Source: an uncultured virus (IMG/VR IMGVR_UViG_3300027776_000003) (lineage: Duplodnaviria; Heunggongvirae; Uroviricota; Caudoviricetes). Taken from it: a stretch of DNA of 20,000 bases. The notes below the pieces were generated by a model. The model did not search any database. It worked only from the letters and a program-made list of their open reading frames with translations, and had not been told where the DNA came from. Position 1 is the stretch's first letter. Each line of letters begins with the position of its first letter. Positions 1-15,714 of this stretch are shown one piece after another. Both the position numbers and the translations under genes were made by a program. Location: the IMG/VR virus record IMGVR_UViG_3300027776_000003, positions 48,882 through 68,881 of that record, one strand, 5' to 3'.

Positions 1-1
1 C

Positions 2-260
2 TAGCGGCGTCGGCTCGCGCTCCACGCGAAACGTGCCGAGCACGCCCTGCTTCCGGTCCCGCCGCATCTTGGCGACGTCGATCACGAGGAGGCCCTCGTC
101 GGAGTCGTTTGCGTACCCGCGCGGGATGTCCTCCGAAGGGTGCGCGAAGACCGCGTTGCCGATGTGGCGATTCGCGAGCCCGCGCCGCTCGTTACTCGCG
201 AGCAGCCCCTCGGAGAGGATCGCCTCGTGATTGTCGGGATCGGTGCCGTGATACAGGACC
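2..260 (-). other. HGT-type (Tpt1/KptA- or PARP-like) ART domain, truncated by window edge
   Basis: VLYHGTDPDNHEAILSEGL...AVFA...GY...LLVID. Confidence 0.7.
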
Positions 261-3200
261 GACGGGCCGTGCTCCGCCCAAAAGTCGGCGTGCACCTCTT
301 CGTTGAGGCGGGTCACCTCATCGTCCACGTTGAGGTCGTCCACGAACTCCCGCACGCTCTCCACGCGAGAATAGCCGCCGCCGGTGACGCCGGGCTCCCA
401 TGTGATGACCGCCGTCTCCTCCTCCCCTCGGTGCGTGCGCGTGAACGTGGCCGCGTGCGCGTGCCCATAAGCAGACAGGTCTTGGCGCTCGGCGCCGAAG
501 TGCCGCAACACCTCATCGAACTGCTCGGGGGTCGCGGCCTCGTCGGCAGCGGCTTCGATGTCATCGCCCCATCCATCGTCGCCGTTGTCGGGGTCCGCCG
601 GCCACGGGCGCCAGCCGGCCGCCGGGTGCTCGCGGTAGAACGCCTCGGACGCTTCGGCGATGTCGGGGAACATCTCCCCCTGATTCTTGTCCCGGAACCG
701 GCCGATGTTGTCCCGGGGATGCTCCGCCTCAAAGTCCGCGCTCTTGTGGAACTTGTTCGAGCGCGTCGGGCGCGGGTTGAAGGCGCTCTTGATCTGGTTC
801 GGCGACAGCGGGATGAAGACGTAGTTGTCGCCGCCCTGCACCGCCTCGTTTGGCGAGGTGTTGGTATAGCGCAGCCCATCGTGGCCGCTGTCCTTCAACC
901 ACTGGCGATAGCGCCGCATCACCCGGAAGGCGAGCCCCTGCTTCGCCGGGTCACCGCGATGCAACACGAGGCGATCCGAGTGATTCCGGAGGATGAAGTG
1001 TTGCAGCGAGCGGTAGGTGGTCGTGCCGCTGTTGTGCTGGTTCGGCCACTCGAACCCGTCCCGCGCGGTCATCTTCTCGTGGAGCTTGCGCGCGTTGTCG
1101 CGCCACTCCCGGCCCTTGTAGTCATAACCGTTCTCCTGCCCGATCTCCGTCATCCACTCATAGAGCAGCTTTGGGCTCGCGGTGAGCGCCTGCGTGTACG
1201 CGTCGGCGGCCACCGCCTCCTCATCGCCCACCCGGCCCGACGAGATGTTCTCGTCGTCGTCGTACAGGTCTCGGAAGTGTGGTTGTGGGACTACACGCGG
1301 ATTGCGGATGGCGAGGTAGACCGGCACGACTCGCCCACCGGGCTTCGCGGCGAATGGCGTCGCGTCCCGCATCCACGACGGCACGGTCTCGCCGGCGGCG
1401 GCCATACGCGCAGCGTTTTCGTCCTGCACGAAGTCCCGGCCGTGCACCGCGAGCCCTTCGCGCAACAGGCGGTCGGCGCCCCACTGATCATCTTCGCGGG
1501 CGTAGATGCCCGCCGCGAACTGTGCCGCCGTCGCGGGCTCGCCGGTGAAGTGCGGCCCGAGCGCGCGGTCGATGGTCGTGCCGGTGTGGATGACGTGTCC
1601 GTTGCCGATGTCCTTCGTCTGGTCCGGGGGATCGCCCCGGAAGTTCGAGAACTGGTGGCGGGTGCCGTGGTACATCTGGCGCGGGGTGCCGTCAGCGTTC
1701 GTGACGACCGACCCGCCGAACCACTTCCGCCACTCGGGCGTGTCCCATCCCCCGCCCGGGAGCGGCTCGGGATCGCCGGCCATCACGGTCGAGTTGCGCC
1801 GCCAATGCGGCACCGTCGCATCGAGCAGCGCGGCCCCCTCACCCGTGGCGCCGCCCCATCGCACGCGATCCCCCTCGCGCTGGTCGAGGAACGCGCGAAT
1901 GAGTGCGCGCCCCACGCCTTGCCGGCGTGCGTCGGGGTGTACCGCGATCATCGAGACGGAATCCTCCCCGTTGTAGCTGACCGCTTGCACGACGCCGACC
2001 GCGCGGCCGCTGGCGTCCCGCGCCACGACGTTGTAGTTGACCTGTCCGCTGTACGCGTCGGTCACCTCGGTCGAGAACGACAGCGCCGTCTTGACCCACT
2101 GGCCGCCGTTCGGCTCACCCTTGGGCGCGCGCGGCTGGTCCGCGTCGAACTTCTGCACGCGTGCCTTGCGCGTGATCGTGATGTCCCCCGGCAGCCACAG
2201 CCACCGATCCTCTGACGATGGCGCATGCGCCACCGAGGCGGCCTTGCCGATGGTCGCTTTCGGCGTGTAGTGTGGCGCCAGCTTGGGCACCACCGTGATG
2301 ATCGCCATCGGGTTGCCGGCCATCGTGCGGTAGAACTGCCGGTGTTTCACGACGAACTCGGTCGCCGGCGGCAGGATGTACTCCTGCTCGTGCGAGCGAA
2401 TCGCCGGGATCGCGGGCCATCCGTCGGGCCAGATCGTTCGGATGATGGTGCCGCCGGCCCCGGCGAAGCTGGTCGCATTAGCCGGGTGTGTCGAGAACGA
2501 CGCGAACCCCTTGTCGGTGAATGCGTCGCCGGGCTTGAGCCTCGCGAGATCGCCCGCCAGCTCTCCCCGTACACCGCGATACATCTCGGTATCGCCGGCG
2601 TGCGGGAAGTGCCGAATCATCTCCTCCATGAGATCGAAGTCCGCCTTGCCGCGCTGCTCCGTCGCGTCGTCGAGCGACCACTGTCGCGTGCGAATGCCGC
2701 GCGCCGAGTCGTTGATCGGCGACGAGGACCGCTGATACCGTGAGATCGAGCCGCGCAAGAACGCGAGCGGGCCGCCCGACATTCGCAGCGCCTCGTCCGC
2801 ATCATCCTCGTAGCCCGGGAGCCCCGACAGTTCCGCCACGCGCTTCATGCGCTCCGTCACCGCGCCGCTCGTCGCCACGCCGGCGGCCGACCACGCCGCC
2901 TCGCTTCGCGTTTCGTGGTCAGAGTCCTCGACGGAGACGGCCTCCATCATCCCTCGGCTCCAATAGCCGAACGCCTCGTGCTCCGGCACGAACTGCACGC
3001 GCGCGCCCTTGGGGCCGTCCGTCGTCTGGTGCACCATGATGCCGACCCCGTTCTCGTCAGGGTCGATGCCACGGTTCACTTCCGCCACCATGCGCCGCTG
3101 CTCGCTGAGCATGTTCGCAGCGGACCGCGAGAACTCGTGGCGCCTAACGACCGCTTCGGCTGCGGCCTTGGCCTCCTCCATCGAGCCGTAGAACTTGCGC

Positions 3201-6200
3201 TGTGATGGCTGCGATGTATCAACCGGCACGAACTGGTTGATGTACGCGCTGATCGGGTCGATGACGAAGCCCTTGCTGCCAGCCGGGCTAATGACCAGCG
3301 TCCCGCGCAGCACCGACTCGTCAGCGGGCATCCACACGCCTTGCACGAGCTGGAAGGTGTCCTTGATCACGCCGCTCGCGATGGCGGTGCGCGCACGCTT
3401 GGCCTCTGCGGGCGACGAGAAGACAAACGCGCTTCGGCCATCCGGCCCCACCACGAACTCGGGCGCGTCCTCGCCAGTGTGCTGCGGGTACGCCTCAATC
3501 TCTTCGGGCGCTTGCGGTCCGGCTGCAACGGCCTCCACGCGGGCGGACCACGTGAGCGACGCCGCGAGGGCGCGCCCAACGCTCGCCGCTGTCGCGACGA
3601 ACTCGTTCTGGCCCGGCACCTCGGTGGCCATGCCTAACAACGCCTCGGCTTCTTCCTTCGTCGGCTTGAGCACCGCGAACTCCGGCCGGCGCCCATCGTG
3701 GTTGTAGTTGCTCGTGTGGCGTTGGATCGTCGCGATGCGCGACAGGCTATGCCCCGCGACGCGCACCGGCATGTCGTCCGGGCTGATGAACTGCCCGCCC
3801 GTCGGGTCGCCGGCCGCTGCGTGCAACATGCCGTTGGCATCCACGACGCCCGGCGCGGCCTTCGTGATGTTCGGGTCGCGGCGGTCGTAGGTGCCTCGAT
3901 TGCCGACCGCCGATTTCACCTGACGGGACGACCAGACGATGTAGTGCGCGGCATCCCCGCGCTGAAACTTGTGCTGCATCCCATTGAACACGCCCGGGTC
4001 CATGATGATGCCGTCGAACTTGAGGCGCCGCACGAGGTCGCGCTGGAACTGCTTGTACATGTTCGGGAACGTGTCGGTGCGCCCCCGCAGACGAGGGTCT
4101 CCCGCCCCCTCCACGTCGATCTGGCTGTCCATGAACGCGTAGCGAGTCGTCGCCGCCGTGAGCGCCTCGCCGAGGTCGATCTTCCCCTCGCCCCACTCCT
4201 CGCGGCGCATGGCGACATGCTCAAAGAATCGCTGTTGCATGTCCGCCACCTCCCCATCGCGCATCCCGTACTCGGCCCCCACGTCACGGAGCGCGCGCGC
4301 GAACAGCCGCACGCCGCGCCGGTCGAGGGTCGTCGGCTCGCCGTATCGGAATGACAGCTCCGACCCCTTCGCGTAGAGCAGCGCCGGCTTTTTCATCGCG
4401 AGGAACACGGGGACCGTCGCGCCGCCGTGAGTCACGCCGAGCGACTCGCGCGCGATCCGCAACTTCTCCTCCCGGGGGAGGTCGGCGCCGTCATCGTCGC
4501 GGTCGATGTTGGCCTCGATCCAGAGTTCGAGGTTGTTCCGGAGGTCGGGGCCGTCTGCCGAGGCGTAGTGTGCGCCGGCGTCCCCGAGGTCGTCGGTGAA
4601 GTAGTGGCCCGCGCCGAAGAAGTTGTCGGGGTTCGCGTAGGCGTAGCCGAACTCCTCGAAATCGCGCGTGGTCCCGTGCAGCACGGCCTCCGTGACCTTC
4701 GATCCGTCCATGAAGCGGCGCAGGTTCGCGGCCGCCTCCCCGAGCCCGGACGCTTCCAGCTCGCGCGCGTGATCCTCATACGACCGCCCGTCACCGAGCG
4801 ACGGCGCGCTCCCCTTCACCCACTGGCCACCGTTCGGCTCGCCCTTGGGCGCGCGCGGCTGGTCCGCGTCGAACTTCTGCACGCCGTCGGTTGGCGTCGG
4901 CATGGCATACGTGGGCCATTCGTCATAGAGGACGCGCCCCCCGCGCGAGATCGAGTCGGCCGGCCGATCCTGCCACGACTTCCCGAGCGCCGAGACCGTC
5001 CGTTTCCGCCCGGCGCTTACGACGCGTGCATAGCGCAGCCCCATGACGCGCGCGAAGTGGCGCATCGCCACGTGCGAGTGCTCGTTAATGGTGCGAACGT
5101 TCGCCTCTTCATTGGACATCCCACCGTTCACGCGCGTGGCCCATCGGTTGTTGAACGTGACGTGATGGCGGTCGAAGAAGTGGTCGGCAATCATGGCCAT
5201 CGCGATAGCGGCGCGCTCGTCCGGCGTGCGGTCCGTGTCCCCGGCTTGCATCCAGCGCGGGCGGAGCGTTCCCTCGATCTGCTCGCGCAGGAACCGTGTG
5301 TCGTGTCTCGCTTCGCTGCGCCGAATCGGCGTGTCGTTCGCGGACTCCTTCTCGTAATGCGCCGCGTGGTCGCGCACGAACTTGTCGATGGCGGTCGTCG
5401 CGTCCCAATCTTTCGGCCGCTGGAGTCGGTAGAGCACGCGCTGGCCATCCCACGACGTGCCAACCGCGCGGAGTTCCGCCATCCGCGTGCGGGTGAAGAT
5501 GGCCATGTCGTCCGTCGAGAACGAGGACGCGTTCGGGTGGTTGTGCGTCAGCGTGCCGCCGGCCATCGCGCGTAGTTCGTCGTCGGTGAACTCGACGGAG
5601 TTGTGGTTCCCCGTCTTCTCGAAGTTTGCCCCGACGCCGCCCGTCAGCGCCGCCGTCTCGATCTCGTCCTCGGCGATGCCCATCTCGAAGGCGGTCATCG
5701 TGCTGCCGGTTCGCGCCCACCGCCCACCGCCCTTCTGCCCCTTGGGGATGCGCGGCTGGTCGGCCTCGAACTTCACCACGTTGTGCCTGACGGTCGCGAC
5801 GCCCGCGCGCGCGAGCGCCCGTCGCACGGCGGCGATGGTGCGCGGTGCGTAGGATGCGAATCGGGTCGGGGCCATGCCGGCAACCTGCTGTGCCCCGAAG
5901 AGGTAGCTCGCCGCGTGGGCGAACGCTTCCTTGGGCGACGACAGCGCGTAGACGATGTTATCCTCGTCGAACGCGTTCGGCGCGATGGCGAGGGTGCGCT
6001 CGATCTTCTTCTTGTCGCGGGCGAGCGACCCGCGCACCGACGCCTTGTCCCACCCCCAATGACTCAGGGGCGCGGAGCCACCGATGGCGTAGTCGAGCGC
6101 GTGGCCGAACTCGTGCAGCACGATCTCGTGGAACACCGCGTCGGCCTTCTGCTCGTCGGTGAGGGCAATCACCTTGGTATGCCGGCGCGCGGTGATCCCA

Positions 6201-9200
6201 TCGTCCACGACGTGAACCATCGCCGCCATCTTGATCGTTGAGAACAGCACACCCCGGACAGGTCCGTCGCCGTCGTCCACGGAGTAGTGCAGCCCAGCCG
6301 CCGCCGCGAAACGCTCCGACGGCACGTGCCCAATCGCGGTGCCGGCGGCTGCCTCCTCCATCGAGGCCGCGACCGACACCCCCTCCGTGAGCGATGCCGC
6401 GATGCGGCGCCGCGCGCTGACCGGGAGCGTGTTGAAGATCGTCCGCACGCGCTTCGCATTCGCCCGCGCGGTGGCGTCGAGATCGGCACTCATCGCGGTG
6501 GGTCGGATGAGCAGCCCGTCAGGCCCACTCGCGTCAGCCAGCCCCGCGTAGCGGTTCCAGTCGGGTCGGCTGTCGATCACCCCGAGCGCGTCACTCCACC
6601 GCCCGCGCTCGTCGCGCGGCTGGTCGGCCCGGTACTTCTCGATCACGGTGAGGATCGCCTTCCGCATGTCGTCCGGGGACGCTGGCGGCCCTTTCTTCTT
6701 TCCCTTCTTTGGCGTCGTGCGGGCGAGCCCCGGCCGGCGCCGAACCGTGCGCTCCGGGTCCACATCCGGCTCGACGAATGCCTCGGGCTCGGCGGTGTCG
6801 GGCTCGGGCAGCGGATCGAGATCACGCGCGAGCGGGTCCGGCGCGCGCTTCCGGTCCGCGATGCGTTCGAGCAGCGTCTTGAACCACTCACGCGCCGCGC
6901 GCACCGCTTCGTTCTTGTTGTCACCGAACAGCGGCTCCCACCACGCGGAGCCCTTCGGATCGCCTTCCGGCGGCCCGGTCTCCACCACGGGGAACGGCCG
7001 CTCATCGGGTCCAACGGAGCCAAGCCGCGCCGGGAAGTTGGCGACGAGCGCATCGGCCGCGTCGGCGAGCATCTGATCGGCCGCCTCGGGGCTCACCTCC
7101 CACTCAGGCGGCAACGCGCCCGGGGCGGGAGTGATCACGAGCGTGCAGCGGCAGCCGTACGATTGCGGCGGCCCCCACACGGACTCGCCATCCACGATGA
7201 ACGACTCGTCGTAGGTGAGCGTCACGCCGTCCACCTCGCGGTGTTGGTCGCGCACCTTGTGGTCGCCCATCGTTTTCCACCGCTTCGTGATGCGCGTCGT
7301 GTCCGTGCCGGTGGCCGCGATGAACGCGTCCCACCCGGCGCGGAGCGTGGCGAGGTCGCGCTCGCGCCATTCCTTCATCGCCTCGACGCCGCGCAGATAC
7401 TCGTCGGCCCGGCGTCGGTACACGCCAGCCATGCGGTCGATCTGCTCCTGCGTGAACGGGGCGATCCCCCGGTCGCCGCGCTCCCATGCGGTGAGCGCCC
7501 CGATCCCTACCTGCGACAGGCGGTCATCGCCGCGCTGGTCGCGGAACACGCGCGCAAGGGCCATCGGATCGAGAGCTTGCAACTGGCGGCGGTAGCTCTC
7601 GGTCCACGCCGCGAGCCGACGCGCGCCGGCCTCGGACAGCGGCGGGAGCGTGTCGAGCGTGGCCTTCCCGACCGTGGCGCGCGAGGTGCGCCGCGTGATC
7701 GTGATGTCACCCGGGAGCCACACCCACCGATCATCCGGCGACGGCGCCGGGAGGTTCGGGTTCTCCTGCTTCGCAACCGTCGCCTTGGGCTTATACGCCT
7801 TCTGGAGGCGCGGGACGACCGTGACGAGCGTCATCGGGCTTTGCGTGACGGTGCGAAAGTGCTCGACGTGCTTGACGGTGAACTCCGTCCCGGGCGGGAG
7901 GATGTACTCCTGCTCATCGGAGCGCAGCGCCGGGATGGCGGGCCATCCGTCGGGCCAGATCGTTCGGATGATCGTGCCGCCCCTGCCGGCGAAGCTGAAC
8001 GCGTTCGTGTGGTGTGTCGTGAAGCTCGCAAAGCCCTTGTCGGTGAACGCGTCGCCAGACTTGAGCACCGCCAGATCACCCGCGAGCGCGCCCCTCACTC
8101 CGCGAAACATCTCCCGTGCGCCTTGCAACGGGAAATGCGGCACGAGCGCCGCCATGAGATCGAAGTCTGCCTTTCCAATCTCCGCCTGCCTGTCCTGTAA
8201 CGCGAAGTCACGCGTGCGGATACCGCGCGCCGAGTCGTTGATCGGCGACGATGACCGTTGGTAACGCTTGATCGAACCGCGCAGCGTGCCGAGCGTCCCG
8301 TTATCTCCGTGCGCCTCTTCGATGACGTCGGCGTCGCCCCCTGTCAGGCTTGGGTGCACAAGCCGCACGACGCGCGCGGCGGCCGCCGTGATGGCCGGGT
8401 CGTTGGCGCCCTCGCTCGACTCCGCAGCGGACCACGCGCGCCGGCTTTCCTCCTTTTGGTGGTCATCCTCGACGAGATGCGCCTGCATCATCGCGCGGTC
8501 GGCGTACCCAAACGCGATGTGCTCCGGGGAGAAATGGCCATACAACACGCGCGGCCCGTCCGATGTCTCCCCGAACACACGGAGCCCCGGTCCATCCTCC
8601 ACTACGGGGTCGATGCCGTTCTGTAGTGTTTCGGCGATCCAATACGCATCACCAAGATTCCGGGTGGCGGTCTCGTGCCACGCAAGACGCCGCATGATCG
8701 TACGCGCCTCAGCGGTGGCTCCTTCCAACGTGGGAAACCACGCGGCGGGTAGCTCCGAGCGCATGACATACGGCGCAGCGCCGGATGCTGCTATCACCGA
8801 GTAGCCGTTTGAGTCCGGGTGGATCGAGAGCGCCGGCTCATCGACACTCTGCCCGTTCGCGTAAGCCGCTTTTGCCCGATCCGCGTCCTCCTGCGATGCG
8901 TAGACGTGCCACCAGCCGGACCCGTCTTGATCCTCGACGATGGCCGGCTCCGCCGCGTTTGGGTGTTGGGGGTATGCGGCCAGCTCGTCGTCGGTCCGGT
9001 CTCGACGCTGCGCCCACCCTTTCAGCCGGTCGCGATACTGCACCGACGCGAGGAGCGCAGCCTCAAACTTCCGCGCCGTCGTCACCGGGTTGTAATCATC
9101 CGAGGCAATGGCCGCGATGGCTGCGGCCTCGGCCTCCGACTCGTACAGCGCGGATGTGTCGGGACGCAACGCGCCTGCACGCACGGCGCGCAGCGCACGC

Positions 9201-11881
9201 TCCGCTTTCTCTCGGACGGTTTTCAGTTGCATGACGGCTCCCTCGTCCGTCACGAACACCGGCCGATCTTCGTCCGACATGAACTGCCCGCCGGCCGGGT
9301 CACCAGCCGCCGCGTGCAACATGCCGTTCGCGTCCACGACGCCCGGCGCCGCCTTGGCGAATGGTGTCATGCCCGCCGGGTAGCGCACCATCGTGGGCGA
9401 GAGCGGGTCACGCAGCCGGCGCGCGCCGGGTTCACGGTATCCCTCGAACCCAAACTCGCGATAGAATGCCATGAGTTCCGCCTGCGTGCGCGGCCGGTGC
9501 TGTCCGATCACCCCCGGGATCGGGGACGCGAACAGGTCGAGGATCACGCCGTGCTTGTCGGCCAGCTCCGTCAGCATCTCCATCGCCTTGCGACCGCCGC
9601 CTCGCGTGACGGCAACCAACTCTTCCAAGTGCACGCCCTCGTCGCCGAGCGGGTACAGCTTGACCATCGCCGTGTAGTGCCGTTCCCCGCCACCCGTGAG
9701 GCGGAAGTTGGTCACGCGAATGCGCCAATCAACCGGATGGTCGAACGAGCGGGCCTCGAACTCCGCGACGAAGGCGTCAATCGCCTCTTTCCCCGAGAAC
9801 CGTCCGCCCTTGTCGCGCGGGTGCTTGGCCTCGAAGTCGGCGTCCTTGCCTAACGGGGCTCGCACGCGGATGGTGCACAGCGTGAGGCCGTCGTCGGCCG
9901 CCTTGTGCAGGGTTGTGGGCAGCTTGTTCGAGTGGAGGAGCGCGCGGGTGACGCGGATCGCGCGCGGGAACGCCCGCGCGAACTCCGTGCTCGCCACGCC
10001 TCGCACGTAGCGCGCGCCCATGAGGTACGCGTACGCGTCGGCGAACAACTCCGACGGCTTCACCAGTGGCGCCGTGAACGTATTCACCCACCGGGACGCG
10101 TCGGTGTCGCCCCATCCGCTCACGTCATCATCGCTCGCGCGCTTGAGCGTCGCGATCTTCTCGGACCCGAAGCTCGTGCCGCTGCGGCCCACGCGCCCGG
10201 CGAGCCCGAAGTCAATCGCGTGCCCGGTCTCGTGCAGGACAACGGAGCGCATGAGGTCCGCGCTGTCCGGTTCCGCGACATCGTTCATCGTCGCCACCGT
10301 CTTGCGGTAGCGTTCCACGCTGCGCTCGCCAATGCACATCTCGGCGCCCGTCATGAAGTACGCCGCACATCCGGGCTCGCTGCTTTGCGCGTCGAGCGAC
10401 GTGAGCGACACCTGTGGCAGGACCTTCACCGTCCCAAGGCTGCCATACTCGCGCGTCGAGGCGAGGAGCGCGCGGTGCTCCACCGGCAATGAGGCGAGCG
10501 TGTCCCCGACCAGATGTTGCGTCTCCTCGCTCGCGCCCATCGGGATGATCACGATAGCCCCTTTCGGCAACTCGGCATCGACGCCGTTCCACGGGGTCTC
10601 GCTCGCCAAGACGGCGAGTTCTTGCGAGACGACGGGGTGCTTGCCGGCGTTACGCAGAAACGCGCGTGCCGCCTCGCGGGTGGCCGGATCGCGCACATCC
10701 TGCTGCCACTTCGCCGCCTCGTGCTCCCCCGATGGGCCATCCCCCACGACCTCCTGCACCGCCGCCCGCACATGCTTGATGTGCTCGGCGCCTAACAGCA
10801 CGGGCGAGCCCGCGTGCACACCCGAGAACGCCCGCTGGCCGCGCAAGCTGCCGACGTGTAGCCCACCCGACAGCCGGACCCATTGGCCCGCTGTCGGCGT
10901 CCCCGCCGGCACGCGCGGCTGCGCCGGGTCGTACTTCGCCAGCGCGTCGCGGTCCACGTCGCAGACGTGCAGGAACGCCCACGCGTTCAGGTCGAGCATC
11001 GGCCCGGCGTCGTCCTCGCCCTTTCGCACGGCTGCGCGGCGCGTCGCCACGTAGCCCCCAAGCCGCTGCATCGCCGCCGCGTCGTCGAACCGCAGCACGA
11101 GGTTGCCGGCGCCGATTCCCGCGTAGCGGTGAAACCCGTTGTCGGCAAGCAGTCGATGGGCCGCCGCGCGCGGCTTCATGTCCGCGATGCGCCAGATGGC
11201 TTTCGGGTCCGGGTCGTCCAGCGCGCGCCACACCTCGGCCACCTGTGCCTTCGTCAGGTCACCGGCCTTCTGCATCGCGGCCATGTGCCGCTGCACCATC
11301 TCGCGGCGCCACGGATCGCGATCCGGCCAGTTGTCGGCGTGCGTGAACCCCATGCGCGGCCACGCATACGCCCCATCTTGGGCGGCGCCCATTTCGGCGC
11401 GGTTGATGTTCAACCCGGGCGTCCGTGCCGCGTCGAGCGCGTTAGCCACCAACTGCGCGCCGGCGCCCCGCTGCATGGTCTGCACGCCGATGGAGTCGAG
11501 GAAGAGACGCCCGGGTTGCGCCGGTCCGTCTCCTAGCTCGAACTCATACGTGGCCGCCAGCACCGCGCGGCCGCCCTTCCCGGTGCCGTCGATCTGCACG
11601 CGGAGCACGTCCGTCGGGTCGCCGTTGCCTGAGTACCGCTTGGCCACCTTGCCGACGGTGACCTCGTAGGTGTATTCGTCCGGCATCCCGGCGACCATGC
11701 GCCGCGCGAAGTCCTCCGCCTGCACGCCGGCAACCCGCAACACAGCGGCCGCCTCTGGCCGCACCGAGGCGCTCACGCGCGCCGGCATCGCGTCCCCGTC
11801 GGTCCAGCGGCCGCCGGCATCACGCGGTTGGGTGGGATCGTACTTCCCCACCAGCGCCGAGAACCATGCGTGCGTCGTCAT
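2..11881 (-). CDS. Giant (>=3960 aa, 3' end beyond window) MuF-containing polyvalent protein / putative effector polyprotein
   Basis: ATG at 11881-11879 overlaps the TGA of the upstream gene (ATGA coupling). Hand translation (MTTHAWFSALVGKYDPTQPRDAGGRW...VEREPTPL) shows no stop to the window edge. The ORF track has no minus-strand ORF in this frame in 1-11881, while the long plus-strand shadow ORFs (140, 4427, 6287, 8819 etc.) all lie in its antisense register. Many recognisable enzyme motifs; located after terL and portal. Confidence 0.95.
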   Translation of the reverse strand, partial: MTTHAWFSALVGKYDPTQPRDAGGRWTDGDAMPARVSASVRPEAAAVLRVAGVQAEDFARRMVAGMPDEYTYEVTVGKVAKRYSGNGDPTDVLRVQIDGTGKGGRAVLAATYEFELGDGPAQPGRLFLDSIGVQTMQRGAGAQLVANALDAARTPGLNINRAEMGAAQDGAYAWPRMGFTHADNWPDRDPWRREMVQRHMAAMQKAGDLTKAQVAEVWRALDDPDPKAIWRIADMKPRAAAHRLLADNGFHRYAGIGAGNLVLRFDDAAAMQRLGGYVATRRAAVRKGEDDAGPMLDLNAWAFLHVCDVDRDALAKYDPAQPRVPAGTPTAGQWVRLSGGLHVGSLRGQRAFSGVHAGSPVLLGAEHIKHVRAAVQEVVGDGPSGEHEAAKWQQDVRDPATREAARAFLRNAGKHPVVSQELAVLASETPWNGVDAELPKGAIVIIPMGASEETQHLVGDTLASLPVEHRALLASTREYGSLGTVKVLPQVSLTSLDAQSSEPGCAAYFMTGAEMCIGERSVERYRKTVATMNDVAEPDSADLMRSVVLHETGHAIDFGLAGRVGRSGTSFGSEKIATLKRASDDDVSGWGDTDASRWVNTFTAPLVKPSELFADAYAYLMGARYVRGVASTEFARAFPRAIRVTRALLHSNKLPTTLHKAADDGLTLCTIRVRAPLGKDADFEAKHPRDKGGRFSGKEAIDAFVAEFEARSFDHPVDWRIRVTNFRLTGGGERHYTAMVKLYPLGDEGVHLEELVAVTRGGGRKAMEMLTELADKHGVILDLFASPIPGVIGQHRPRTQAELMAFYREFGFEGYREPGARRLRDPLSPTMVRYPAGMTPFAKAAPGVVDANGMLHAAAGDPAGGQFMSDEDRPVFVTDEGAVMQLKTVREKAERALRAVRAGALRPDTSALYESEAEAAAIAAIASDDYNPVTTARKFEAALLASVQYRDRLKGWAQRRDRTDDELAAYPQHPNAAEPAIVEDQDGSGWWHVYASQEDADRAKAAYANGQSVDEPALSIHPDSNGYSVIAASGAAPYVMRSELPAAWFPTLEGATAEARTIMRRLAWHETATRNLGDAYWIAETLQNGIDPVVEDGPGLRVFGETSDGPRVLYGHFSPEHIAFGYADRAMMQAHLVEDDHQKEESRRAWSAAESSEGANDPAITAAAARVVRLVHPSLTGGDADVIEEAHGDNGTLGTLRGSIKRYQRSSSPINDSARGIRTRDFALQDRQAEIGKADFDLMAALVPHFPLQGAREMFRGVRGALAGDLAVLKSGDAFTDKGFASFTTHHTNAFSFAGRGGTIIRTIWPDGWPAIPALRSDEQEYILPPGTEFTVKHVEHFRTVTQSPMTLVTVVPRLQKAYKPKATVAKQENPNLPAPSPDDRWVWLPGDITITRRTSRATVGKATLDTLPPLSEAGARRLAAWTESYRRQLQALDPMALARVFRDQRGDDRLSQVGIGALTAWERGDRGIAPFTQEQIDRMAGVYRRRADEYLRGVEAMKEWRERDLATLRAGWDAFIAATGTDTTRITKRWKTMGDHKVRDQHREVDGVTLTYDESFIVDGESVWGPPQSYGCRCTLVITPAPGALPPEWEVSPEAADQMLADAADALVANFPARLGSVGPDERPFPVVETGPPEGDPKGSAWWEPLFGDNKNEAVRAAREWFKTLLERIADRKRAPDPLARDLDPLPEPDTAEPEAFVEPDVDPERTVRRRPGLARTTPKKGKKKGPPASPDDMRKAILTVIEKYRADQPRDERGRWSDALGVIDSRPDWNRYAGLADASGPDGLLIRPTAMSADLDATARANAKRVRTIFNTLPVSARRRIAASLTEGVSVAASMEEAAAGTAIGHVPSERFAAAAGLHYSVDDGDGPVRGVLFSTIKMAAMVHVVDDGITARRHTKVIALTDEQKADAVFHEIVLHEFGHALDYAIGGSAPLSHWGWDKASVRGSLARDKKKIERTLAIAPNAFDEDNIVYALSSPKEAFAHAASYLFGAQQVAGMAPTRFASYAPRTIAAVRRALARAGVATVRHNVVKFEADQPRIPKGQKGGGRWARTGSTMTAFEMGIAEDEIETAALTGGVGANFEKTGNHNSVEFTDDELRAMAGGTLTHNHPNASSFSTDDMAIFTRTRMAELRAVGTSWDGQRVLYRLQRPKDWDATTAIDKFVRDHAAHYEKESANDTPIRRSEARHDTRFLREQIEGTLRPRWMQAGDTDRTPDERAAIAMAMIADHFFDRHHVTFNNRWATRVNGGMSNEEANVRTINEHSHVAMRHFARVMGLRYARVVSAGRKRTVSALGKSWQDRPADSISRGGRVLYDEWPTYAMPTPTDGVQKFDADQPRAPKGEPNGGQWVKGSAPSLGDGRSYEDHARELEASGLGEAAANLRRFMDGSKVTEAVLHGTTRDFEEFGYAYANPDNFFGAGHYFTDDLGDAGAHYASADGPDLRNNLELWIEANIDRDDDGADLPREEKLRIARESLGVTHGGATVPVFLAMKKPALLYAKGSELSFRYGEPTTLDRRGVRLFARALRDVGAEYGMRDGEVADMQQRFFEHVAMRREEWGEGKIDLGEALTAATTRYAFMDSQIDVEGAGDPRLRGRTDTFPNMYKQFQRDLVRRLKFDGIIMDPGVFNGMQHKFQRGDAAHYIVWSSRQVKSAVGNRGTYDRRDPNITKAAPGVVDANGMLHAAAGDPTGGQFISPDDMPVRVAGHSLSRIATIQRHTSNYNHDGRRPEFAVLKPTKEEAEALLGMATEVPGQNEFVATAASVGRALAASLTWSARVEAVAAGPQAPEEIEAYPQHTGEDAPEFVVGPDGRSAFVFSSPAEAKRARTAIASGVIKDTFQLVQGVWMPADESVLRGTLVISPAGSKGFVIDPISAYINQFVPVDTSQPSQRKFYGSMEEAKAAAEAVVRRHEFSRSAANMLSEQRRMVAEVNRGIDPDENGVGIMVHQTTDGPKGARVQFVPEHEAFGYWSRGMMEAVSVEDSDHETRSEAAWSAAGVATSGAVTERMKRVAELSGLPGYEDDADEALRMSGGPLAFLRGSISRYQRSSSPINDSARGIRTRQWSLDDATEQRGKADFDLMEEMIRHFPHAGDTEMYRGVRGELAGDLARLKPGDAFTDKGFASFSTHPANATSFAGAGGTIIRTIWPDGWPAIPAIRSHEQEYILPPATEFVVKHRQFYRTMAGNPMAIITVVPKLAPHYTPKATIGKAASVAHAPSSEDRWLWLPGDITITRKARVQKFDADQPRAPKGEPNGGQWVKTALSFSTEVTDAYSGQVNYNVVARDASGRAVGVVQAVSYNGEDSVSMIAVHPDARRQGVGRALIRAFLDQREGDRVRWGGATGEGAALLDATVPHWRRNSTVMAGDPEPLPGGGWDTPEWRKWFGGSVVTNADGTPRQMYHGTRHQFSNFRGDPPDQTKDIGNGHVIHTGTTIDRALGPHFTGEPATAAQFAAGIYAREDDQWGADRLLREGLAVHGRDFVQDENAARMAAAGETVPSWMRDATPFAAKPGGRVVPVYLAIRNPRVVPQPHFRDLYDDDENISSGRVGDEEAVAADAYTQALTASPKLLYEWMTEIGQENGYDYKGREWRDNARKLHEKMTARDGFEWPNQHNSGTTTYRSLQHFILRNHSDRLVLHRGDPAKQGLAFRVMRRYRQWLKDSGHDGLRYTNTSPNEAVQGGDNYVFIPLSPNQIKSAFNPRPTRSNKFHKSADFEAEHPRDNIGRFRDKNQGEMFPDIAEASEAFYREHPAAGWRPWPADPDNGDDGWGDDIEAAADEAATPEQFDEVLRHFGAERQDLSAYGHAHAATFTRTHRGEEETAVITWEPGVTGGGYSRVESVREFVDDLNVDDEVTRLNEEVHADFWAEHGPSVLYHGTDPDNHEAILSEGLLASNERRGLANRHIGNAVFAHPSEDIPRGYANDSDEGLLVIDVAKMRRDRKQGVLGTFRVEREPTPL
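760..1742 (-). other. ART-PolyVal-like ADP-ribosyltransferase domain B
   Basis: TPEWRKWFGGSVVTNADGTPRQMYHGT...GPHFT...VVPVYLAIRNP...GHDGLRY...PNQIKSA. Confidence 0.87.
1815..2080 (-). other. GNAT acetyltransferase domain 3
   Basis: Canonical motif A MIAVHPDARRQGVGRALI, then WGGATGEGAAL. Confidence 0.87.
2285..2755 (-). other. R-S-E clade ADP-ribosyltransferase domain, copy 2 (paralog of 7810-8280)
   Basis: RYQRSSSPINDSARG...EMYRG...FTDKGFASFS...HEQEYILP. Confidence 0.88.
3863..4725 (-). other. ART-PolyVal-like (HGT-type) ADP-ribosyltransferase domain A
   Basis: VLHGTTRDFEEF...FGAGHYFTD...PVFLAMKKP...FDGII...HYIVW...QVKSAVGNRGTYD. Confidence 0.85.
5020..5700 (-). other. JAB/MPN (JAMM)-like domain
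   Basis: Upstream acidic EIETAA plus TLTHNHPNASSFSTDD (H-x-H...S-x-x-D), then ELRAVG. Confidence 0.8.
5800..6460 (-). other. Zincin metallopeptidase domain 2 (HExxH, lethal factor-like)
   Basis: IVLHEFGHALDY (HEFGH at 6101-6115) and downstream YALSSPKEAFAH. Confidence 0.87.
7130..7630 (-). other. MuF (Mu gpF / SPP1 gp7-like) minor head protein domain, internal
   Basis: TQEQIDRMAGVYRRR...KRWKTMGDHKVRDQHREVDG...PPQSYGCRCT: W-x-T-x-x-D-x-x-V-R-x-x-H and CRC signature. Confidence 0.9.
7810..8280 (-). other. R-S-E clade (VIP2/C3-like) ADP-ribosyltransferase domain, copy 1
   Basis: RYQRSSSPINDSARG...EMFRG...FTDKGFASFT...DEQEYILP: catalytic R, S and E-x-E signature. Confidence 0.88.
9380..9780 (-). 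other. GNAT acetyltransferase-like domain 2
   Basis: VHLEELVAVTRGGGRKAMEMLTELADKHGVILDL...ELMAFYREFGF (motif-B-like FYxxxGF). Confidence 0.8.
9930..10530 (-). other. Zincin metallopeptidase domain 1 (HExxH, anthrax lethal factor / MPTase-like)
   Basis: VVLHETGHAID (HETGH at 10220-10234) followed by the third-ligand motif SELFADAYA. Confidence 0.85.
11050..11700 (-). other. GNAT acetyltransferase-like domain 1 of giant protein (approximate bounds)
   Basis: LFLDSIGVQTMQRGAGAQLVANALDAA...AAQDGAYAWPRMGF: motif-A-like QRGAG and C-terminal YAW-x-R-x-GF. Confidence 0.7.
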
Positions 11882-13980
11882 GAGCGCCCCCATCCCGGGC
11901 CGAATACCATCCGGATCGCCTTGGTGAGGTCGCGGCCGGCGTTGAACACGATCTTGCGCTTCCCGCCCCGCTTGAACTCGATGCGCCCGCTGCTCATGGC
12001 CGCGCCTAACGTGGCGTCGGTATAGCCGTAGCCCTCCGCCAACTTCGTGAACGGACGCGTGCCGAGGTCGGCCACCCGCTCGATCACCGGCGCGTGCTTC
12101 GGGGCGAACTGCATCTTGACCGTCAGGTGTCCTCCGTCGCCCTCATTCCACCCGAATCCTTCGACCTTCCCGCCGTACATGCCTAACGTCAGCTTCGGGA
12201 GGATGACGCTCGTCTCCATCGCCGCGCGCGTCAACCGCTGCTTGACCCCGGGGTGGATCGAGGGCTGATCCATGATGTTGCGGACCATCTGCTCGCGTGC
12301 CTGCTCCACCGTGATCTCCTTCCGGTGCAGCGCCACGAGCACGTCCTTGTTCTTCGGCACGTAGCGGATCACGCCCGGGAGCTTCTCCTGCTGGAAGAGG
12401 GCGAGGTTGTCGGCCACACGGAACGCGCTCCCCACCGCATCGTTCTCCCAATCGACGTCGGCCTCGTAGTGCCGCATGATCACGTCCGACGTGTGCCGCG
12501 CGGCGCCGTCGCCGAGGGCCTCGCGCACCATCCCGCGCAGGTTCGTGTTGAAGTGCTGCGCCGACCACCGGGGATGCTGGCCGTCGAGGAAGACGCGGCT
12601 CGGGGGCGTGAGATACCCCGCGTCGTGGAACGCGGCCGCCATGAACAGGACGGCCCTGTCCTCGGCGGAGTTCTCGTGCGTGCCCGGTACGGCCTTGAGG
12701 ATCGCGAGCGACTGATCGAGGTCCTGCAACAGGTGGCGCGCGCCGTGGTCGCCGAGCGACCGCGCGATGGACTCGGACTCCTGCGCCGCCATGTGGTCGA
12801 ACCACGACTCGGCCAGCCGGCGCGCGGCCGCGACCGGCGCCCGGGCCGTCAGGAGCGTCTCGTGGAAGTCCACCGCGCTGCGCTCGATCATGCGGGCGGT
12901 GTCTTGGTGGAACGCGCCCTCTTTCACGAGCGTCGCCACGCGCGCCTTGACGGCGGCGCCATACTCGGCGGCGCCGTCCCACGCACCCGCGACCCCCGAG
13001 ACGGCCGACACGGCGCGCTTGACCGTCACGGATGCGTTGGCCTGACGGTCCTGCTCCTCGGGGTCGAGCGCGTCCCACGCCTTGCGCCGGTCCGGGATCG
13101 AGCGCCCGGTCCACGAGGCGGTGTCGAAGCCCCCGCCGGCCCCTCTGGCGCGCCGCGTCTGCTCCGGTGGCGTCTTCCCCTTGCCGGCGCCGTCCGCCCC
13201 GCTGGCGGGGCTGGCAGAGGCGCCGGCGCCGTCCTTGGGGGCGAACTGTCCGCCGCGCTTATCGCCCTTCGGGTGCCGCTTGTACTCGCGCGCCGCCTTG
13301 GCGAACCACGCCCACGGGTCGCCCGACTCCTCGCGGCTTTTCTTGATCCACTTCTCTTTGATCATTTGGGCCACCCGTTCGGTGTCTTCATAGTGCAGAT
13401 CGGTGTGCACGGTCCCGTCCCCGCCCTTGCCCCAATAGACCACCATCGTGTGCGGCGTGTCGGTCGCGCTGCGGTCGATGTTGGTATCCCGCCAGCGAAT
13501 GCCGTCGTAGCCCTTGCGGCGGAGGTCTTCGCGCAGCCGGTCCATGTAGCGCGCGCGCTCGCCGGTCTCCGGATACGTCGGGCGCATCACCAGCGTGAGG
13601 ACCTCGGCCTTGCTCATCTTTTTGCCGAGGTACTTCATCGCGCGTTGCGGGGTGGCGAACTGCTCAAAGAATCCGGACTTGACGTCGAGGAACCGCGCGC
13701 CCTGCAACAGCTCGTGGTAATCCGCGTTGGCCCGGCGGACGCGCGGCCCGAACTTGCGCGCGTGCGCCGGGTCGTCGCTCCACCACGTCCCCATGTCGTC
13801 GATAGCGCGCGCGTCGGTGCCGAGGCGCCGCGAGAACCCGCCCCGCGTGATCGCGCCCTCGACAGCGAAGATCGTCCCGTGATACCAGCCGGTGCCGCGC
13901 GTCCACTTCCCGTCGTCGTCGCGCGGCTGGTCCTTGTTGTACTTCGTCACCAGCGCCGCGCACCACTCGGCCACGGTCAT
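11878..13980 (-). CDS. 700-aa two-effector protein: N-terminal HGT-type ART domain plus C-terminal HD phosphohydrolase domain
   Basis: Start MTVAEW at 13980, 2 nt after the upstream TAA. ART motifs WYHGT...GTWWSDDP...GYDGI (~13430-13890). HD motifs DHGARH...AAAFHDAGY (HD at 12622-12627)...RH...VADNL. Two tag peptides. Confidence 0.88.
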   Translation of the reverse strand: MTVAEWCAALVTKYNKDQPRDDDGKWTRGTGWYHGTIFAVEGAITRGGFSRRLGTDARAIDDMGTWWSDDPAHARKFGPRVRRANADYHELLQGARFLDVKSGFFEQFATPQRAMKYLGKKMSKAEVLTLVMRPTYPETGERARYMDRLREDLRRKGYDGIRWRDTNIDRSATDTPHTMVVYWGKGGDGTVHTDLHYEDTERVAQMIKEKWIKKSREESGDPWAWFAKAAREYKRHPKGDKRGGQFAPKDGAGASASPASGADGAGKGKTPPEQTRRARGAGGGFDTASWTGRSIPDRRKAWDALDPEEQDRQANASVTVKRAVSAVSGVAGAWDGAAEYGAAVKARVATLVKEGAFHQDTARMIERSAVDFHETLLTARAPVAAARRLAESWFDHMAAQESESIARSLGDHGARHLLQDLDQSLAILKAVPGTHENSAEDRAVLFMAAAFHDAGYLTPPSRVFLDGQHPRWSAQHFNTNLRGMVREALGDGAARHTSDVIMRHYEADVDWENDAVGSAFRVADNLALFQQEKLPGVIRYVPKNKDVLVALHRKEITVEQAREQMVRNIMDQPSIHPGVKQRLTRAAMETSVILPKLTLGMYGGKVEGFGWNEGDGGHLTVKMQFAPKHAPVIERVADLGTRPFTKLAEGYGYTDATLGAAMSSGRIEFKRGGKRKIVFNAGRDLTKAIRMVFGPGWGRS

Positions 13981-13982
13981 CG

Positions 13983-14201
13983 TTAGGCTCCGGGCTGCTG
14001 CACCGTGGGCGGCGTGCGCGAGAGCGGCGTGAAGTCGGCGTCGTAGCTGCGCCCGGGCTCCCACCACGCGAACGGGCGCCCGTGGAATGTGTCGGTCGGG
14101 TCGAGGGTCACGAGGCCGTCCATCATCATGCCGTCCATCTCGCCGGCGATGTCGATGATCTTGGCGCCGTTCGGTGTGAGGCCGCGTCGCACGTGATACA
14201 T
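13983..14201 (-). CDS. 72-aa hypothetical protein between portal and ART/HD gene
   Basis: ATG 1 nt after the portal TAA (MYHVRRG...QQPGA); fills the gap tightly on both sides. Confidence 0.7.
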   Translation of the reverse strand: MYHVRRGLTPNGAKIIDIAGEMDGMMMDGLVTLDPTDTFHGRPFAWWEPGRSYDADFTPLSRTPPTVQQPGA

Positions 14202-14202
14202 G

Positions 14203-15714
14203 TTAGGCTTCCCCCTCCTCGGTGTCGTCCTCTTCGTCGTCGGCCGTGTCCCGCGTGGGCGTCCCGTCGCCGAAGTGCGTGGGGCCATCGTCGGCCGCGT
14301 CCTCCGGCTGCTCGCCCGCTTGTGTGTCCTGCCCCTTGTCCGGCGTGTTGTTCGGTGACGCCGCCCCCGGTGCCCCCGGCTTCTCCTCGCCCTCGGCGCC
14401 CGGCTTCCCCGCGTTGGGGTCCGGCACGGGTGCGTTCAGCTCTTCCTCGGTCGCCTCGGGCAGCGAGCCGGCCTCGCGCACGAACTGGCGCATGTTGGGG
14501 CTGACGGTGAGATAGCCCGCCGTGGTCATGGCCGTGATGTACGTCGAGAGCGCGGCGAGGTCGCGCTTCGACAGGTTGCCATGCCGGAGCTTCGGCGCCC
14601 GGTCCTCGGGGTAGCCGTTCAGCGCCATCCAGCGATGCACGAGCGAGTGCTGGAACTCGCCCTCCATGATGTCCGCAAGCCCGCCCGTGGCGTGCTCGTA
14701 CATCGTCGTCTTGTCCTCGGACAGCGCCCACGAGCCCGTGGACCCTCCACCGCCTAACAACAGCCAGTCGGCGAGCACCGAGGCCGCCATGCGCTTGTCG
14801 TAGCGTTCGAGCGTCGGGTTGAAATCGACGTTCGAGCGGCCGTCGTTCATCTTGTACTCGATGTCGAGCAACGGCACCTTCTGGCCCCCCTGTCCCGGGA
14901 GCCCGCCCGACTCGATCACGTCCGACGGCAACACGATGGCGGCCTGCCGGTCCTCGGCGATCTTTTTCACCGAGGCGACGAACGAGGCATAGAGCGCGCG
15001 CTCGTCCGGCGTCGCGGTCGTCGTCATCCAGCGCATCGGCGCGCGACCCACGACAAGGCCGGCCGAGCGCATGAGCTTCCGCCCCTCGGCCTCTTCGAGC
15101 ACGCGTTTCTGTACGTAATACTTGTAGGCCCCACGCAAGATGCTGCGGCCCTCGGGGTTCGCCGACTCCAGCACCGTGCGCGGGATGCACAGCTTCTCGA
15201 TGGGGATGAAGACGAGCGGCCGGTCGTAGGGCTGTTGCCACATCCCGAGCAGCACGTCGCCCTCGCCCTCGTCGTCGAACTCCCACTGGTTCACGGACGT
15301 CTGCGCGCGATAGGCGATCTTGTCGATGGCCAGCGTGCCCTTCGCCTTGTCGCGTCGGTAGACCAGCTCTAGCGGCGCGTAGCCGTAGATGATCATCGTG
15401 CTCGCGTCCGCGACGACGCCCGGCCACGGCGTCTTGCGGAGGTCCACGAAGAGCATCTTGCGGAACTCGTCGGCGAACCGCTTCGCCTCGCGTGAGTCGT
15501 CCGCCGGCTCTACGCGCCATTGCATCCGGCGGAGGAGCATCTGCACCGAGTAGACCATGCCATGCAGGAGCGCGTCGGTGTACGCCATCTCGCGATACGC
15601 GTACGCGCCGCGCACCCCGTTCAGCTCGGGCACCCAATCCCACGCGAGGAACCCGCCCGCGCGGTTGATGCCGGATGACCCAAGCTCTGAGGTGAAGTCC
15701 TTGATGTTGGCCAT
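14203..15714 (-). CDS. Phage portal protein (DUF935 / Mu gp29-like), 503 aa
   Basis: Directly after terL. Features: ELGSSG, YREM..D, YGYAPLELVY, NPEGRSILRGAY, GSWALSEDK, acidic low-complexity C-tail. MANIKD start preferred over the GTG extension to 15774. Confidence 0.88.
   Translation of the reverse strand: MANIKDFTSELGSSGINRAGGFLAWDWVPELNGVRGAYAYREMAYTDALLHGMVYSVQMLLRRMQWRVEPADDSREAKRFADEFRKMLFVDLRKTPWPGVVADASTMIIYGYAPLELVYRRDKAKGTLAIDKIAYRAQTSVNQWEFDDEGEGDVLLGMWQQPYDRPLVFIPIEKLCIPRTVLESANPEGRSILRGAYKYYVQKRVLEEAEGRKLMRSAGLVVGRAPMRWMTTTATPDERALYASFVASVKKIAEDRQAAIVLPSDVIESGGLPGQGGQKVPLLDIEYKMNDGRSNVDFNPTLERYDKRMAASVLADWLLLGGGGSTGSWALSEDKTTMYEHATGGLADIMEGEFQHSLVHRWMALNGYPEDRAPKLRHGNLSKRDLAALSTYITAMTTAGYLTVSPNMRQFVREAGSLPEATEEELNAPVPDPNAGKPGAEGEEKPGAPGAASPNNTPDKGQDTQAGEQPEDAADDGPTHFGDGTPTRDTADDEEDDTEEGEA

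What the first reader, a model, noticed from the sequence alone, without database searches (positions are those of the whole stretch)
743..13950. Hydrophobic-x-Lys sites at module boundaries suggest a polyprotein cut by the prohead protease
Seen: every tag starts at [VILF]-x-K: VTK|Y, FAK|A, VGK|Y, LAK|Y, LGK|D, FAK|A, IEK|Y, VVK|F, VQK|F, ITK|A, VQK|F, FHK|S. Similar sites follow domain ends: IKK|S (after upstream ART), VRK|G (GNAT1), LHK|A (peptidase 1), VAK|Q (ART1), VGK|A (before MuF), LGK|S (JAB), IGK|A (ART2), and LTK|A near the end of the HD protein. Lys is uncommon in this GC-rich proteome, so the placement looks non-random. Established: phage prohead proteases cut many head proteins at short motifs (T4 gp21 at hydrophobic-x-Glu), and the Listeria phage A511 capsid protein is cut after a Lys. 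Inference: the ~4000-aa product is a polyprotein matured into about a dozen separate effectors, each exposing the tag at a new N-terminus.
Basis: partly seen in the sequence, partly recalled or inferred. Interest (0 to 1): 0.88.

Follow-up and report, generated by a model that had tools for sequence, protein, structure and literature searches.

The report
Protease-jointed phage head cargo chain
An uncultured wastewater phage makes a 4,000-residue head protein built of enzyme modules, each starting with the same short tag right behind a probable cutting site of the phage's own capsid protease; other phages keep the tag but swap the site to fit their own protease, so the chain is very probably cut into separate cargo proteins, although no cut has been measured.

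Summary
All listed sites exist, in two genes: a 4,009-aa MuF protein and a 700-aa HD protein. All 12 tags have hydrophobic-x-Lys 5-10 residues upstream (chance 0.074 each). The motif is not enriched protein-wide (39 of 128 Lys vs 96 of 357 elsewhere), and non-tag sites are only weakly enriched. The next gene, left of the window, is an XkdF-type head protease (conserved His/Ser, T4 gp21 fold) that carries two more tags; the scaffold is loaded with the motif (13 of 20 Lys). In other phages the tag is constant but the residue before it follows the protease family: h-x-K in 15 of 17 XkdF loci against 1 of 22 DUF2213 loci, which use Asp (19 of 22). Where no protease was found, the tag often follows the start codon directly. 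A natural variant lacks one 549-codon cassette starting in a site's Lys codon. HK97's measured site fits the motif. Verdict: cleavage by the prohead protease about 80% likely, not shown. A new variant of T4-type cargo processing and of polyvalent MuF proteins. This scan has noted the Lys motif on other phages several times.

The parts
1..11881 (-). 4,009-aa MuF-type polyvalent head protein (ends 148 nt left of the window, genome 48733); 10 tagged modules plus an untagged MuF piece
   Evidence: same protein on record as P0003; covered by overlapping contigs of an independent run without a listed indel (X2)
11878..13980 (-). 700-aa protein: leader, tag, ART-like domain (motif only), leader, tag, HD/PDE-like helical domain, C-terminal h-x-K
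   Evidence: HD/PDE assignment is a lead (no Pfam hit; Foldseek E>=0.28)
13903..13950 (-). site VTK|Y + tag (HD protein K13)
   Evidence: kept as h-x-K in 3 of 3 homologs covering it
13243..13305 (-). site FAK|A + tag (HD protein K228); flanking IKK|S at 13339-13347
   Evidence: both kept with other letters in P0036
11920..11928 (-). C-terminal flanking site LTK|A (HD protein K687)
   Evidence: h-x-K in 6 of 8 homologs; in the low-confidence end of the model
11804..11851 (-). site VGK|Y + tag (K17, numbering from the ATG at 11893); GNAT-like module follows (motif only)
   Evidence: no Pfam hit
10880..10942 (-). site LAK|Y + tag (K320); flanking VRK|G at 11021-11029; zincin-like module follows (HETGH)
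   Evidence: SprT-like E 0.07
9797..9853 (-). site LGK|D + tag (K683); flanking LHK|A at 9902-9910; GNAT-like module follows
   Evidence: module has a homolog in L198
9281..9361 (-). site FAK|A + variant tag (K847); unknown domain plus Alt/VIP2-like ART follows
   Evidence: ART related to P0005 (E 4e-14), which is PF03496
7707..9353 (-). 549-codon cassette (tag, unknown domain, ART) absent in frame from a natural variant; one breakpoint in the K847 codon
   Evidence: one contig of run X11, depth 22.7
7664..7777 (-). flanking sites VAK|Q (K1375) and VGK|A (K1410) around a short spacer before MuF
   Evidence: both kept as h-x-K in the paralogous copy
7097..7618 (-). MuF (SPP1 gp7-like) domain, the only module without a tag
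   Evidence: PF04233 E 1.5e-9, phrog_3517 E 1e-15
6596..6667 (-). flanking MRK|A (K1745), site IEK|Y + tag (K1753); second zincin follows (HEFGH)
   Evidence: Peptidase_M90 E 0.004
5717..5779 (-). site VVK|F + tag (K2041); JAB-like module follows (motif only)
   Evidence: homologs in L162, L089; no Pfam hit
4820..4987 (-). flanking LGK|S (K2305), site VQK|F + tag (K2340); ART-PolyVal follows
   Evidence: PF18760 E 6e-11
3788..3868 (-). site ITK|A + variant tag (K2678); second copy of the unknown+ART cassette (44% identical)
2096..2251 (-). flanking IGK|A (K3217), site VQK|F + tag (K3248); GNAT and ART-PolyVal follow
   Evidence: PF13508 E 1e-8, PF18760 E 7e-10
695..751 (-). site FHK|S + tag (K3717); KptA/PARP-like ART follows
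   Evidence: PF01885 E 0.005, PF00644 E 0.011
14203..15714 (-). portal protein (Mu gp29 type); no tag
   Evidence: PF06074 E 2e-28, phrog_113
15783..17453 (-). terminase large subunit
   Evidence: phrog_38 E 7e-64

Best explanation
The two window proteins and the protease precursor are head-cargo polyproteins made of portable units: [short hydrophobic leader]-h-x-K|tag-enzyme. They are built into the prohead (MuF and/or the leaders; inferred). The XkdF-type serine protease encoded next door then cuts after exposed h-x-K, the same code with which it digests the scaffold and frees itself (inferred from sequence co-variation and from HK97/T4 precedent). Flanking sites remove spacers of 8-35 residues (weaker inference). 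Each freed enzyme (ARTs, GNATs, zincins, JAB-like, HD) starts with the tag at or near its new N-terminus, which most likely keeps it in the head or carries it out with the DNA (guess; partner unknown, DNA most likely because the tag is shared by phages with different capsid and protease families). The enzymes act on host targets early in infection (family-level prediction of PMC5512222). Shown here: sequence, genes, fold of the protease, co-variation. Not shown: packaging, cleavage, ejection.
For: 14 of 14 tags carry the site. Protease gene adjacent with invariant His445/Ser501 and gp21 fold. Scaffold 13 of 20 Lys, p 6e-4 against other genes; no such excess for R, D, E, S, T, A or G in the scaffold. 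Scaffold enrichment follows the protease among capsid relatives and among tag loci (h-x-K z median 3.7 for 13 XkdF vs 0.25 for 12 DUF2213, p 0.008). Site switch: discovery 12 of 13 vs 1 of 12; replication with frozen profiles 5 of 5 vs 3 of 10 for Lys and 0 of 5 vs 9 of 10 for Asp; pooled strict h-x-K 15 of 17 vs 1 of 22, p 8e-8, XkdF domains 28% identical at the median. First and last tag of a locus share a class in 65% of 97 loci against 35% shuffled. Tags directly behind a start codon: 1 of 133 tags in loci with a protease; 0 of 38 vs 11 of 59 loci of 15 kb or more (p 0.006). HK97 measured site fits. Paralogous cassettes keep 3 boundary sites and lose 3 in-domain ones. In-frame loss of a cassette at a site. 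Homologs range from a stand-alone leader-tag-HD gene (P0037) to longer chains with a site at each joint (P0036, P0038, P0039).
Against: No cleavage data. Motif not enriched over the whole protein (p 0.25); 31 non-tag sites, and in-domain ones can be as conserved as boundary ones (K596 6 of 8, K646 7 of 8). Non-tag boundary enrichment is marginal. No tree-based correction: all 8 tag loci with a portal like this one are Lys-type, so that test gave no contrast. Exceptions: L045 (XkdF, Asp-type tags, though 4 of 6 have a Lys 7-8 residues further up), L087, L145. My generic Asp test on DUF2213 scaffolds failed (p 0.66) and top-residue matching was only 23 of 47 (p 0.027). HK97-type S78 loci are mixed Lys/Arg with a loose P3 (7 of 34). 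Most loci had no assignable protease (352 of 425). In T4 and SPN3US the measured cuts remove terminal propeptides or shred scaffolds rather than separate several mature domains (passages).
Confidence: 0.8

Rival explanations
1. The Lys is simply part of a repeated binding motif, or a relic of the leader of once separate genes; in the fused protein the internal sites are not cut and the chain is packaged or ejected whole.
For: Leader-like W-x-W-L-x-K remnants sit before several internal tags, as gene fusion would leave them. N4 virion RNA polymerase is packaged unprocessed (PMC5512222 section 8); about 80% of SPN3US head proteins are not cut.
Against: Internal tags follow the phage's own class (65% vs 35%) and the protease family; P3 and P2 letters vary while the pattern is kept; L045 appears to have added Lys sites in front of Asp-type tags.
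Confidence: 0.11
2. The embedded zincin domains cut the chain (before the Tyr/Phe/Ala of the tag), in the head or in the host, as proposed for polyvalent proteins.
For: Two HExxH domains in the big protein; proposal in PMC5512222; 7 of 12 sites have Tyr or Phe at P1'.
Against: 48 of 64 multi-tag proteins in the loci have no HExxH motif; the HD protein has none; the class follows the prohead protease and its scaffold.
Confidence: 0.05
3. The sites are cut, but to destroy the chain: it is a core or scaffold-like filler or a self-toxic product shredded at maturation, and few modules reach the host.
For: The same motif marks the scaffold for digestion; T4 core proteins are cut into many fragments.
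Against: Sites cluster in front of tags, modules are whole enzymes (tag spacing median 273 residues, minimum 110, in 64 proteins), and the tag lies on the retained side.
Confidence: 0.04

Closest known systems
Phage T4 prohead protease gp21 with capsid targeting sequences of IPI-III and Alt (PMC9026906, passages)
   Same: Same protease fold; three-residue h-x-Z site; scaffold shredded at that site; short leader ending in the site; ART cargo.
   Different: Lys instead of Glu; sites are internal and would release about 11 products from one chain; a conserved tag stays on the product, whereas T4's signal is the removed propeptide.
HK97 gp4 (Peptidase S78) acting on the gp5 delta domain (PMC10275583, one passage)
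   Same: Measured cut K103/S104 is h-x-K|S, and five more h-x-K lie in the delta domain.
   Different: XkdF branch (PF14550); separate scaffold gene; capsid protein has no propeptide; cargo chains as substrates.
Phage-type polyvalent proteins and MuF-fused effectors (PMC5512222 section 8 and passages; PMC9503650 passages)
   Same: MuF, ART-PolyVal, Alt/VIP2-like ART, GNAT, zincin domains in one chain within the head genes; the paper already draws the polyprotein analogy and notes assemblin-like peptidases at C-termini.
   Different: The passages read propose release by embedded zincins and do not describe the tag or a site code set by the prohead protease.
phiKZ gp175 / SPN3US gp245 processing of ejection proteins (PMC10052503, passages)
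   Same: Short P3-P1 motif, many head substrates, redundant sites in removed segments.
   Different: Glu-specific; measured products come from removal of terminal propeptides.
MuF polymorphic toxins (PMC12226406, search listing only; architecture recalled)
   Same: MuF-linked enzymatic cargo in a head gene cluster.
   Different: MuF is internal, there are many cargo domains on both sides, and the next gene is the protease, not an immunity gene.

Membership tests
Phage-type polyvalent protein (Iyer 2017) | Several unrelated effector domains in one chain | tested here: met
   ART-PolyVal x2, GNAT, MuF by Pfam; two Alt/VIP2-like ARTs; zincins and KptA-like only weak (E 0.004-0.07)
Phage-type polyvalent protein (Iyer 2017) | Encoded among head-packaging genes | tested here: met
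   terminase, portal, HD gene, big gene, protease, scaffold, capsid in one run
Phage-type polyvalent protein (Iyer 2017) | Packaged in the virion and injected | not testable with these tools
   uncultured phage; no proteome
Prohead-protease substrate of the T4/HK97 kind | Cognate assemblin-fold protease with catalytic His and Ser | tested here: met
   PF14550 E 3.6e-11; His445, Ser501 invariant in 7 of 7; model matches 5jbl Z 8.4
Prohead-protease substrate of the T4/HK97 kind | Same short motif crowds the scaffold and the protease precursor | tested here: met
   13 of 20 and 12 of 26 Lys vs 96 of 357
Prohead-protease substrate of the T4/HK97 kind | Sites lie in exposed linkers | tested here: inconclusive
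   tag sites lie outside homology-covered domains, but low pLDDT there may reflect the thin alignment; non-tag enrichment marginal
Prohead-protease substrate of the T4/HK97 kind | Cleavage demonstrated | not testable with these tools
   needs virions or purified protease
T4 capsid targeting sequence | Targeting signal is the removed N-terminal propeptide, one per protein, Glu site | tested here: not met
   Lys site, repeated internally; the conserved element lies after the site. Short W-rich leaders exist but their role was not tested
MuF polymorphic toxin | N-terminal MuF, one C-terminal toxin, downstream immunity gene (recalled) | tested here: not met
   MuF at residues 1426-1599 of 4,013; next gene is the protease

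The most novel reading that the evidence does not exclude
The tag is a widespread, head-independent N-terminal delivery signal for phage cargo that works only once exposed; phages with a maturation protease place their own cut site in front of it (Lys for XkdF, Asp for DUF2213, Asn, Arg, Glu or Leu/Phe for others), and phages without one put it behind the start codon. Cassettes of site-tag-enzyme are then gained and lost as units. The residue before the tag would thus read out the specificity of uncharacterised prohead proteases, and the tag could load and eject foreign proteins.
Probability: 0.45. Interest if true: 0.85.

Novelty: new variant of a known kind. Interest (0 to 1): 0.64.

Why it matters
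It gives a concrete, testable answer to how giant MuF and polyvalent head proteins can be delivered through a narrow tail: as separate pieces cut in the head. It predicts the specificity of two protease families for which my searches found no measured site (XkdF: h-x-Lys; DUF2213: acidic), and it points to a short portable tag found in hundreds of phage loci, including prophages of cultured Kitasatospora strains and close relatives of a cultured Faecalibacterium phage, where the test can be done. The processing principle itself is known from T4, HK97 and giant phages.

Tried and rejected
Whole-protein enrichment of h-x-K: none. Generic Asp-small test on DUF2213 scaffolds: no difference; some scaffolds there were picked wrongly by the automatic rule (L165, L198). 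Portal-family contrast as a check on shared descent: no contrast. Locus search with the protease domain found nothing; protease alignments were too divergent for that tool. Tag against cultured phages by tblastn: no match; tag profile against PDB sequences: nothing significant; ESM Atlas: unnamed clusters under 0.9. Protease profile against PDB sequences: nothing. Capsid protein plus tag co-folding: no verdict, no evidence either way. HD domain fold search: no match at E<=0.001, weak PDE-type rows. XkdF vs DUF2213 profile comparison: probability 3.8%. Candidate Leu/Phe-type proteases had no Pfam or PHROG hit, so that class is a lead. N-terminal-tag test in the replication set alone was not significant (0 of 17 vs 6 of 34, p 0.16). 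No RNA holder listed. No tRNA. No earlier notes on this genome or by sequence. Papers PMC3601020, PMC3185647, PMC7556043 (passages) held nothing on Lys cleavage; PMC3709472 is not held, so HK97's secondary sites and encapsidation signal could not be read. An N-degron role for the Tyr/Phe exposed at 7 of 12 sites (N-end rule recalled) was considered; many tags elsewhere have a small or acidic residue before the aromatic one, so it is not general.
Full report
Setting. The window is the last 20 kb of a 68,881-nt phage contig. On the minus strand run terminase, portal, a 700-aa gene, a 4,009-aa gene and, left of the window, a 512-aa gene, a 343-aa scaffold-like gene, a 132-aa gene and the capsid gene. 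The 4,009-aa protein is on record as a called protein (P0003). Contigs of run X2, from another study than the possible source, cover 1-14300 in overlapping pieces with no indel listed for that run; no single piece spans the stretch. Holders are mostly wastewater metagenomes (17 runs, 8 studies).

The observation. All 20 listed sites are present. A Lys-free pattern, written after seeing the sequence and needing a second form for the two variant tags, finds 12 tags in the window and 2 in the 512-aa protein; 14 of 14 have [VILFM]-x-K 5-10 residues upstream. A random window of that size holds the motif 7.4% of the time; even counting 8 independent tags gives about 1e-9. The flanking sites are a weaker case: 7 in 400 residues before tags, 31 in 4,064 elsewhere (p 0.049); 7 of 21 vs 31 of 125 given a Lys (p 0.28). 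In the two paralogous cassettes (44% identical) three boundary sites are kept with changed letters and three in-domain sites are lost, but in HD homologs in-domain sites K596 and K646 are kept as often as the terminal K687 (6, 7 and 6 of 8).

The protease. The 512-aa protein ends in a PF14550 XkdF domain (E 3.6e-11; PHROG head maturation proteases). His445 and Ser501 are invariant in 7 of 7 aligned homologs. The model (pLDDT 80) matches T4 gp21 best among 48,161 chains (Z 8.4, rmsd 3.4, 110 aligned), and the varicella protease at Z 5.1. The precursor has 12 of 26 Lys as h-x-K, the scaffold 13 of 20 (p 0.034 and 6e-4); capsid and portal do not (4 of 13, 7 of 22). Among 12 capsid-related loci listed, scaffolds next to an XkdF gene, or judged so from the layout (L005), had 19/42, 14/24, 13/28, 8/19 and 24/50; those with other head genes 6/18, 3/11, 3/11, 2/12, 14/58 and 10/40; one locus held no scaffold. 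Precedent: HK97 is cut at K103/S104 (PMC10275583, one passage), an h-x-K|S site with five more in the delta domain; T4 gp21 cuts L/I-x-E (PMC9026906, passages); SPN3US gp245 A-x-E (PMC10052503, passages). The A511 claim is recalled and was not confirmed.

The natural experiment. After removing duplicates there were 425 loci and 637 tags; 73 loci had a protease by my local profiles, 352 did not, many being short. In the first two scans Lys stood within three residues before the tag's aromatic anchor in 12 of 13 XkdF loci and 1 of 12 DUF2213 loci, Asp in 2 of 13 and 10 of 12. With the profiles frozen, the other two scans gave Lys 5 of 5 vs 3 of 10 and Asp 0 of 5 vs 9 of 10; one of the five repeats L055 and was dropped from the pool: strict h-x-K 15 of 17 vs 1 of 22 (p 8e-8), Asp 2 of 17 vs 19 of 22. 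My XkdF profile includes a branch that Pfam hits only weakly. Tag subtype (QPR or HPR) is partly confounded with protease family, but L023, L173, L198 and this genome carry both subtypes with one class. Smaller classes: Asn in 3 of 4 loci of a DUF2213-like branch, Glu in 2 of 2 of another family, Lys or Arg in HK97-type S78 loci, and Leu/Phe beside a candidate Mu-gpI-like gene, whose profile found two new loci of the same class. T1-like phages have DUF2213 homologs and the TLS capsid protein is cut after Glu (PMC11447400, passage), which fits an acidic P1. Against: L045, L087, L145; the failed Asp scaffold test and the modest 23 of 47 match; no correction for shared descent.

The tag wants to be N-terminal. 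In a gut-phage family whose head genes gave terminase, portal and MuF hits but no protease hit, 9 of 9 tags in 6 loci follow a ribosome-binding site and start codon within three residues. Overall 1 of 133 tags in protease loci is of this kind; among loci of 15 kb or more, 0 of 38 vs 11 of 59 (p 0.006); the replication set alone is not significant. Absence of a recognised protease is not proof of absence.

Modules move as units. A contig of run X11 (depth 22.7) skips 7707-9353, 549 codons in frame, from inside the K847 codon to residue 1396; depth over the cassette falls to 2-6 against 20-25 beside it. A breakpoint falls in one of the ten tag Lys codons by chance 0.25% of the time. Another X11 contig carries about 248 extra codons at 13408, between the first domain and the next sites of the HD gene; its letters were not shown. 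These are single events and show modularity, not cleavage. HD homologs range from a stand-alone gene with a 7-residue leader, site, tag and HD domain (P0037) to chains with extra zincin or ART units and a site at each joint (P0036, P0038, P0039); 2 of 8 have no tag.

Mechanism and rivals are set out in their sections. The zincin model of PMC5512222 (section 8 read whole; passages) is weakened because 48 of 64 multi-tag proteins lack HExxH. What the tag binds is open.

Novelty. Ten literature searches found no paper on this tag or on XkdF specificity; the library lacks most subscription papers, PMC3709472 among them, and the supplements of PMC5512222 were not read and may list the motif. Processing of head cargo at short motifs and the polyprotein analogy are in print. 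Earlier notes of this scan describe the Lys motif beside XkdF proteases and other tags on several other genomes; they are unchecked and not counted as support. I saw in them no mention of the start-codon class or of the multi-family switch, but only a few lines of each are shown. Verdict: new variant of a known kind; cleavage 0.8; interest 0.64.

Noticed in passing
window 13983-14201 (-): A 72-aa ORF between portal and HD gene begins like a spacer that sits behind an h-x-K site inside homolog P0036, so a spacer may exist as its own small gene here.
   Followed up: partly
window 11923-13170 (-): The helical domain has HD-type motifs and weak likeness to PDE/SidE-PDE folds; a head-packaged nucleotide phosphodiesterase would be a candidate counter-defence enzyme.
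   Followed up: partly
window 13408-13409: Run X11 has an in-frame insertion of about 744 nt here; content not seen.
   Followed up: no
L001:14206-15741 (-), left of the window: The protease precursor itself carries two tags and an unknown cargo domain (phrog_3170) in front of the protease domain.
   Followed up: partly
L045:7067-11119: XkdF phage whose Asp-type tags have a Lys-Ser/Ala site 7-8 residues further upstream in 4 of 6 cases, as if re-coded for a new protease.
   Followed up: partly
L437/L438: Locus with 11 tags, each behind x-x-K-G-[YN]-P-E; no protease assigned in the DNA held.
   Followed up: no
L086:2218-15435: One phage holds the tag both in a 2,649-aa chain and in four separate small genes and the protease, all Lys-type.
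   Followed up: partly
window 2169-2224 and 7692-7747: A conserved spacer (W-x-W-L-P-G-D motif) lies between two h-x-K sites in both cassette copies; not found in other loci except a loose match in L144.
   Followed up: partly
L187, L205, L168, L059, L417: Genes at the protease position with no Pfam or PHROG hit form one local family, faintly Mu gpI-like, beside Leu/Phe-type tags.
   Followed up: partly
window 19941-20000 and genome start: The contig ends in a 127-nt direct repeat (circular assembly), and 19583-19642 resembles 19941-20000, two small paralogous genes.
   Followed up: no
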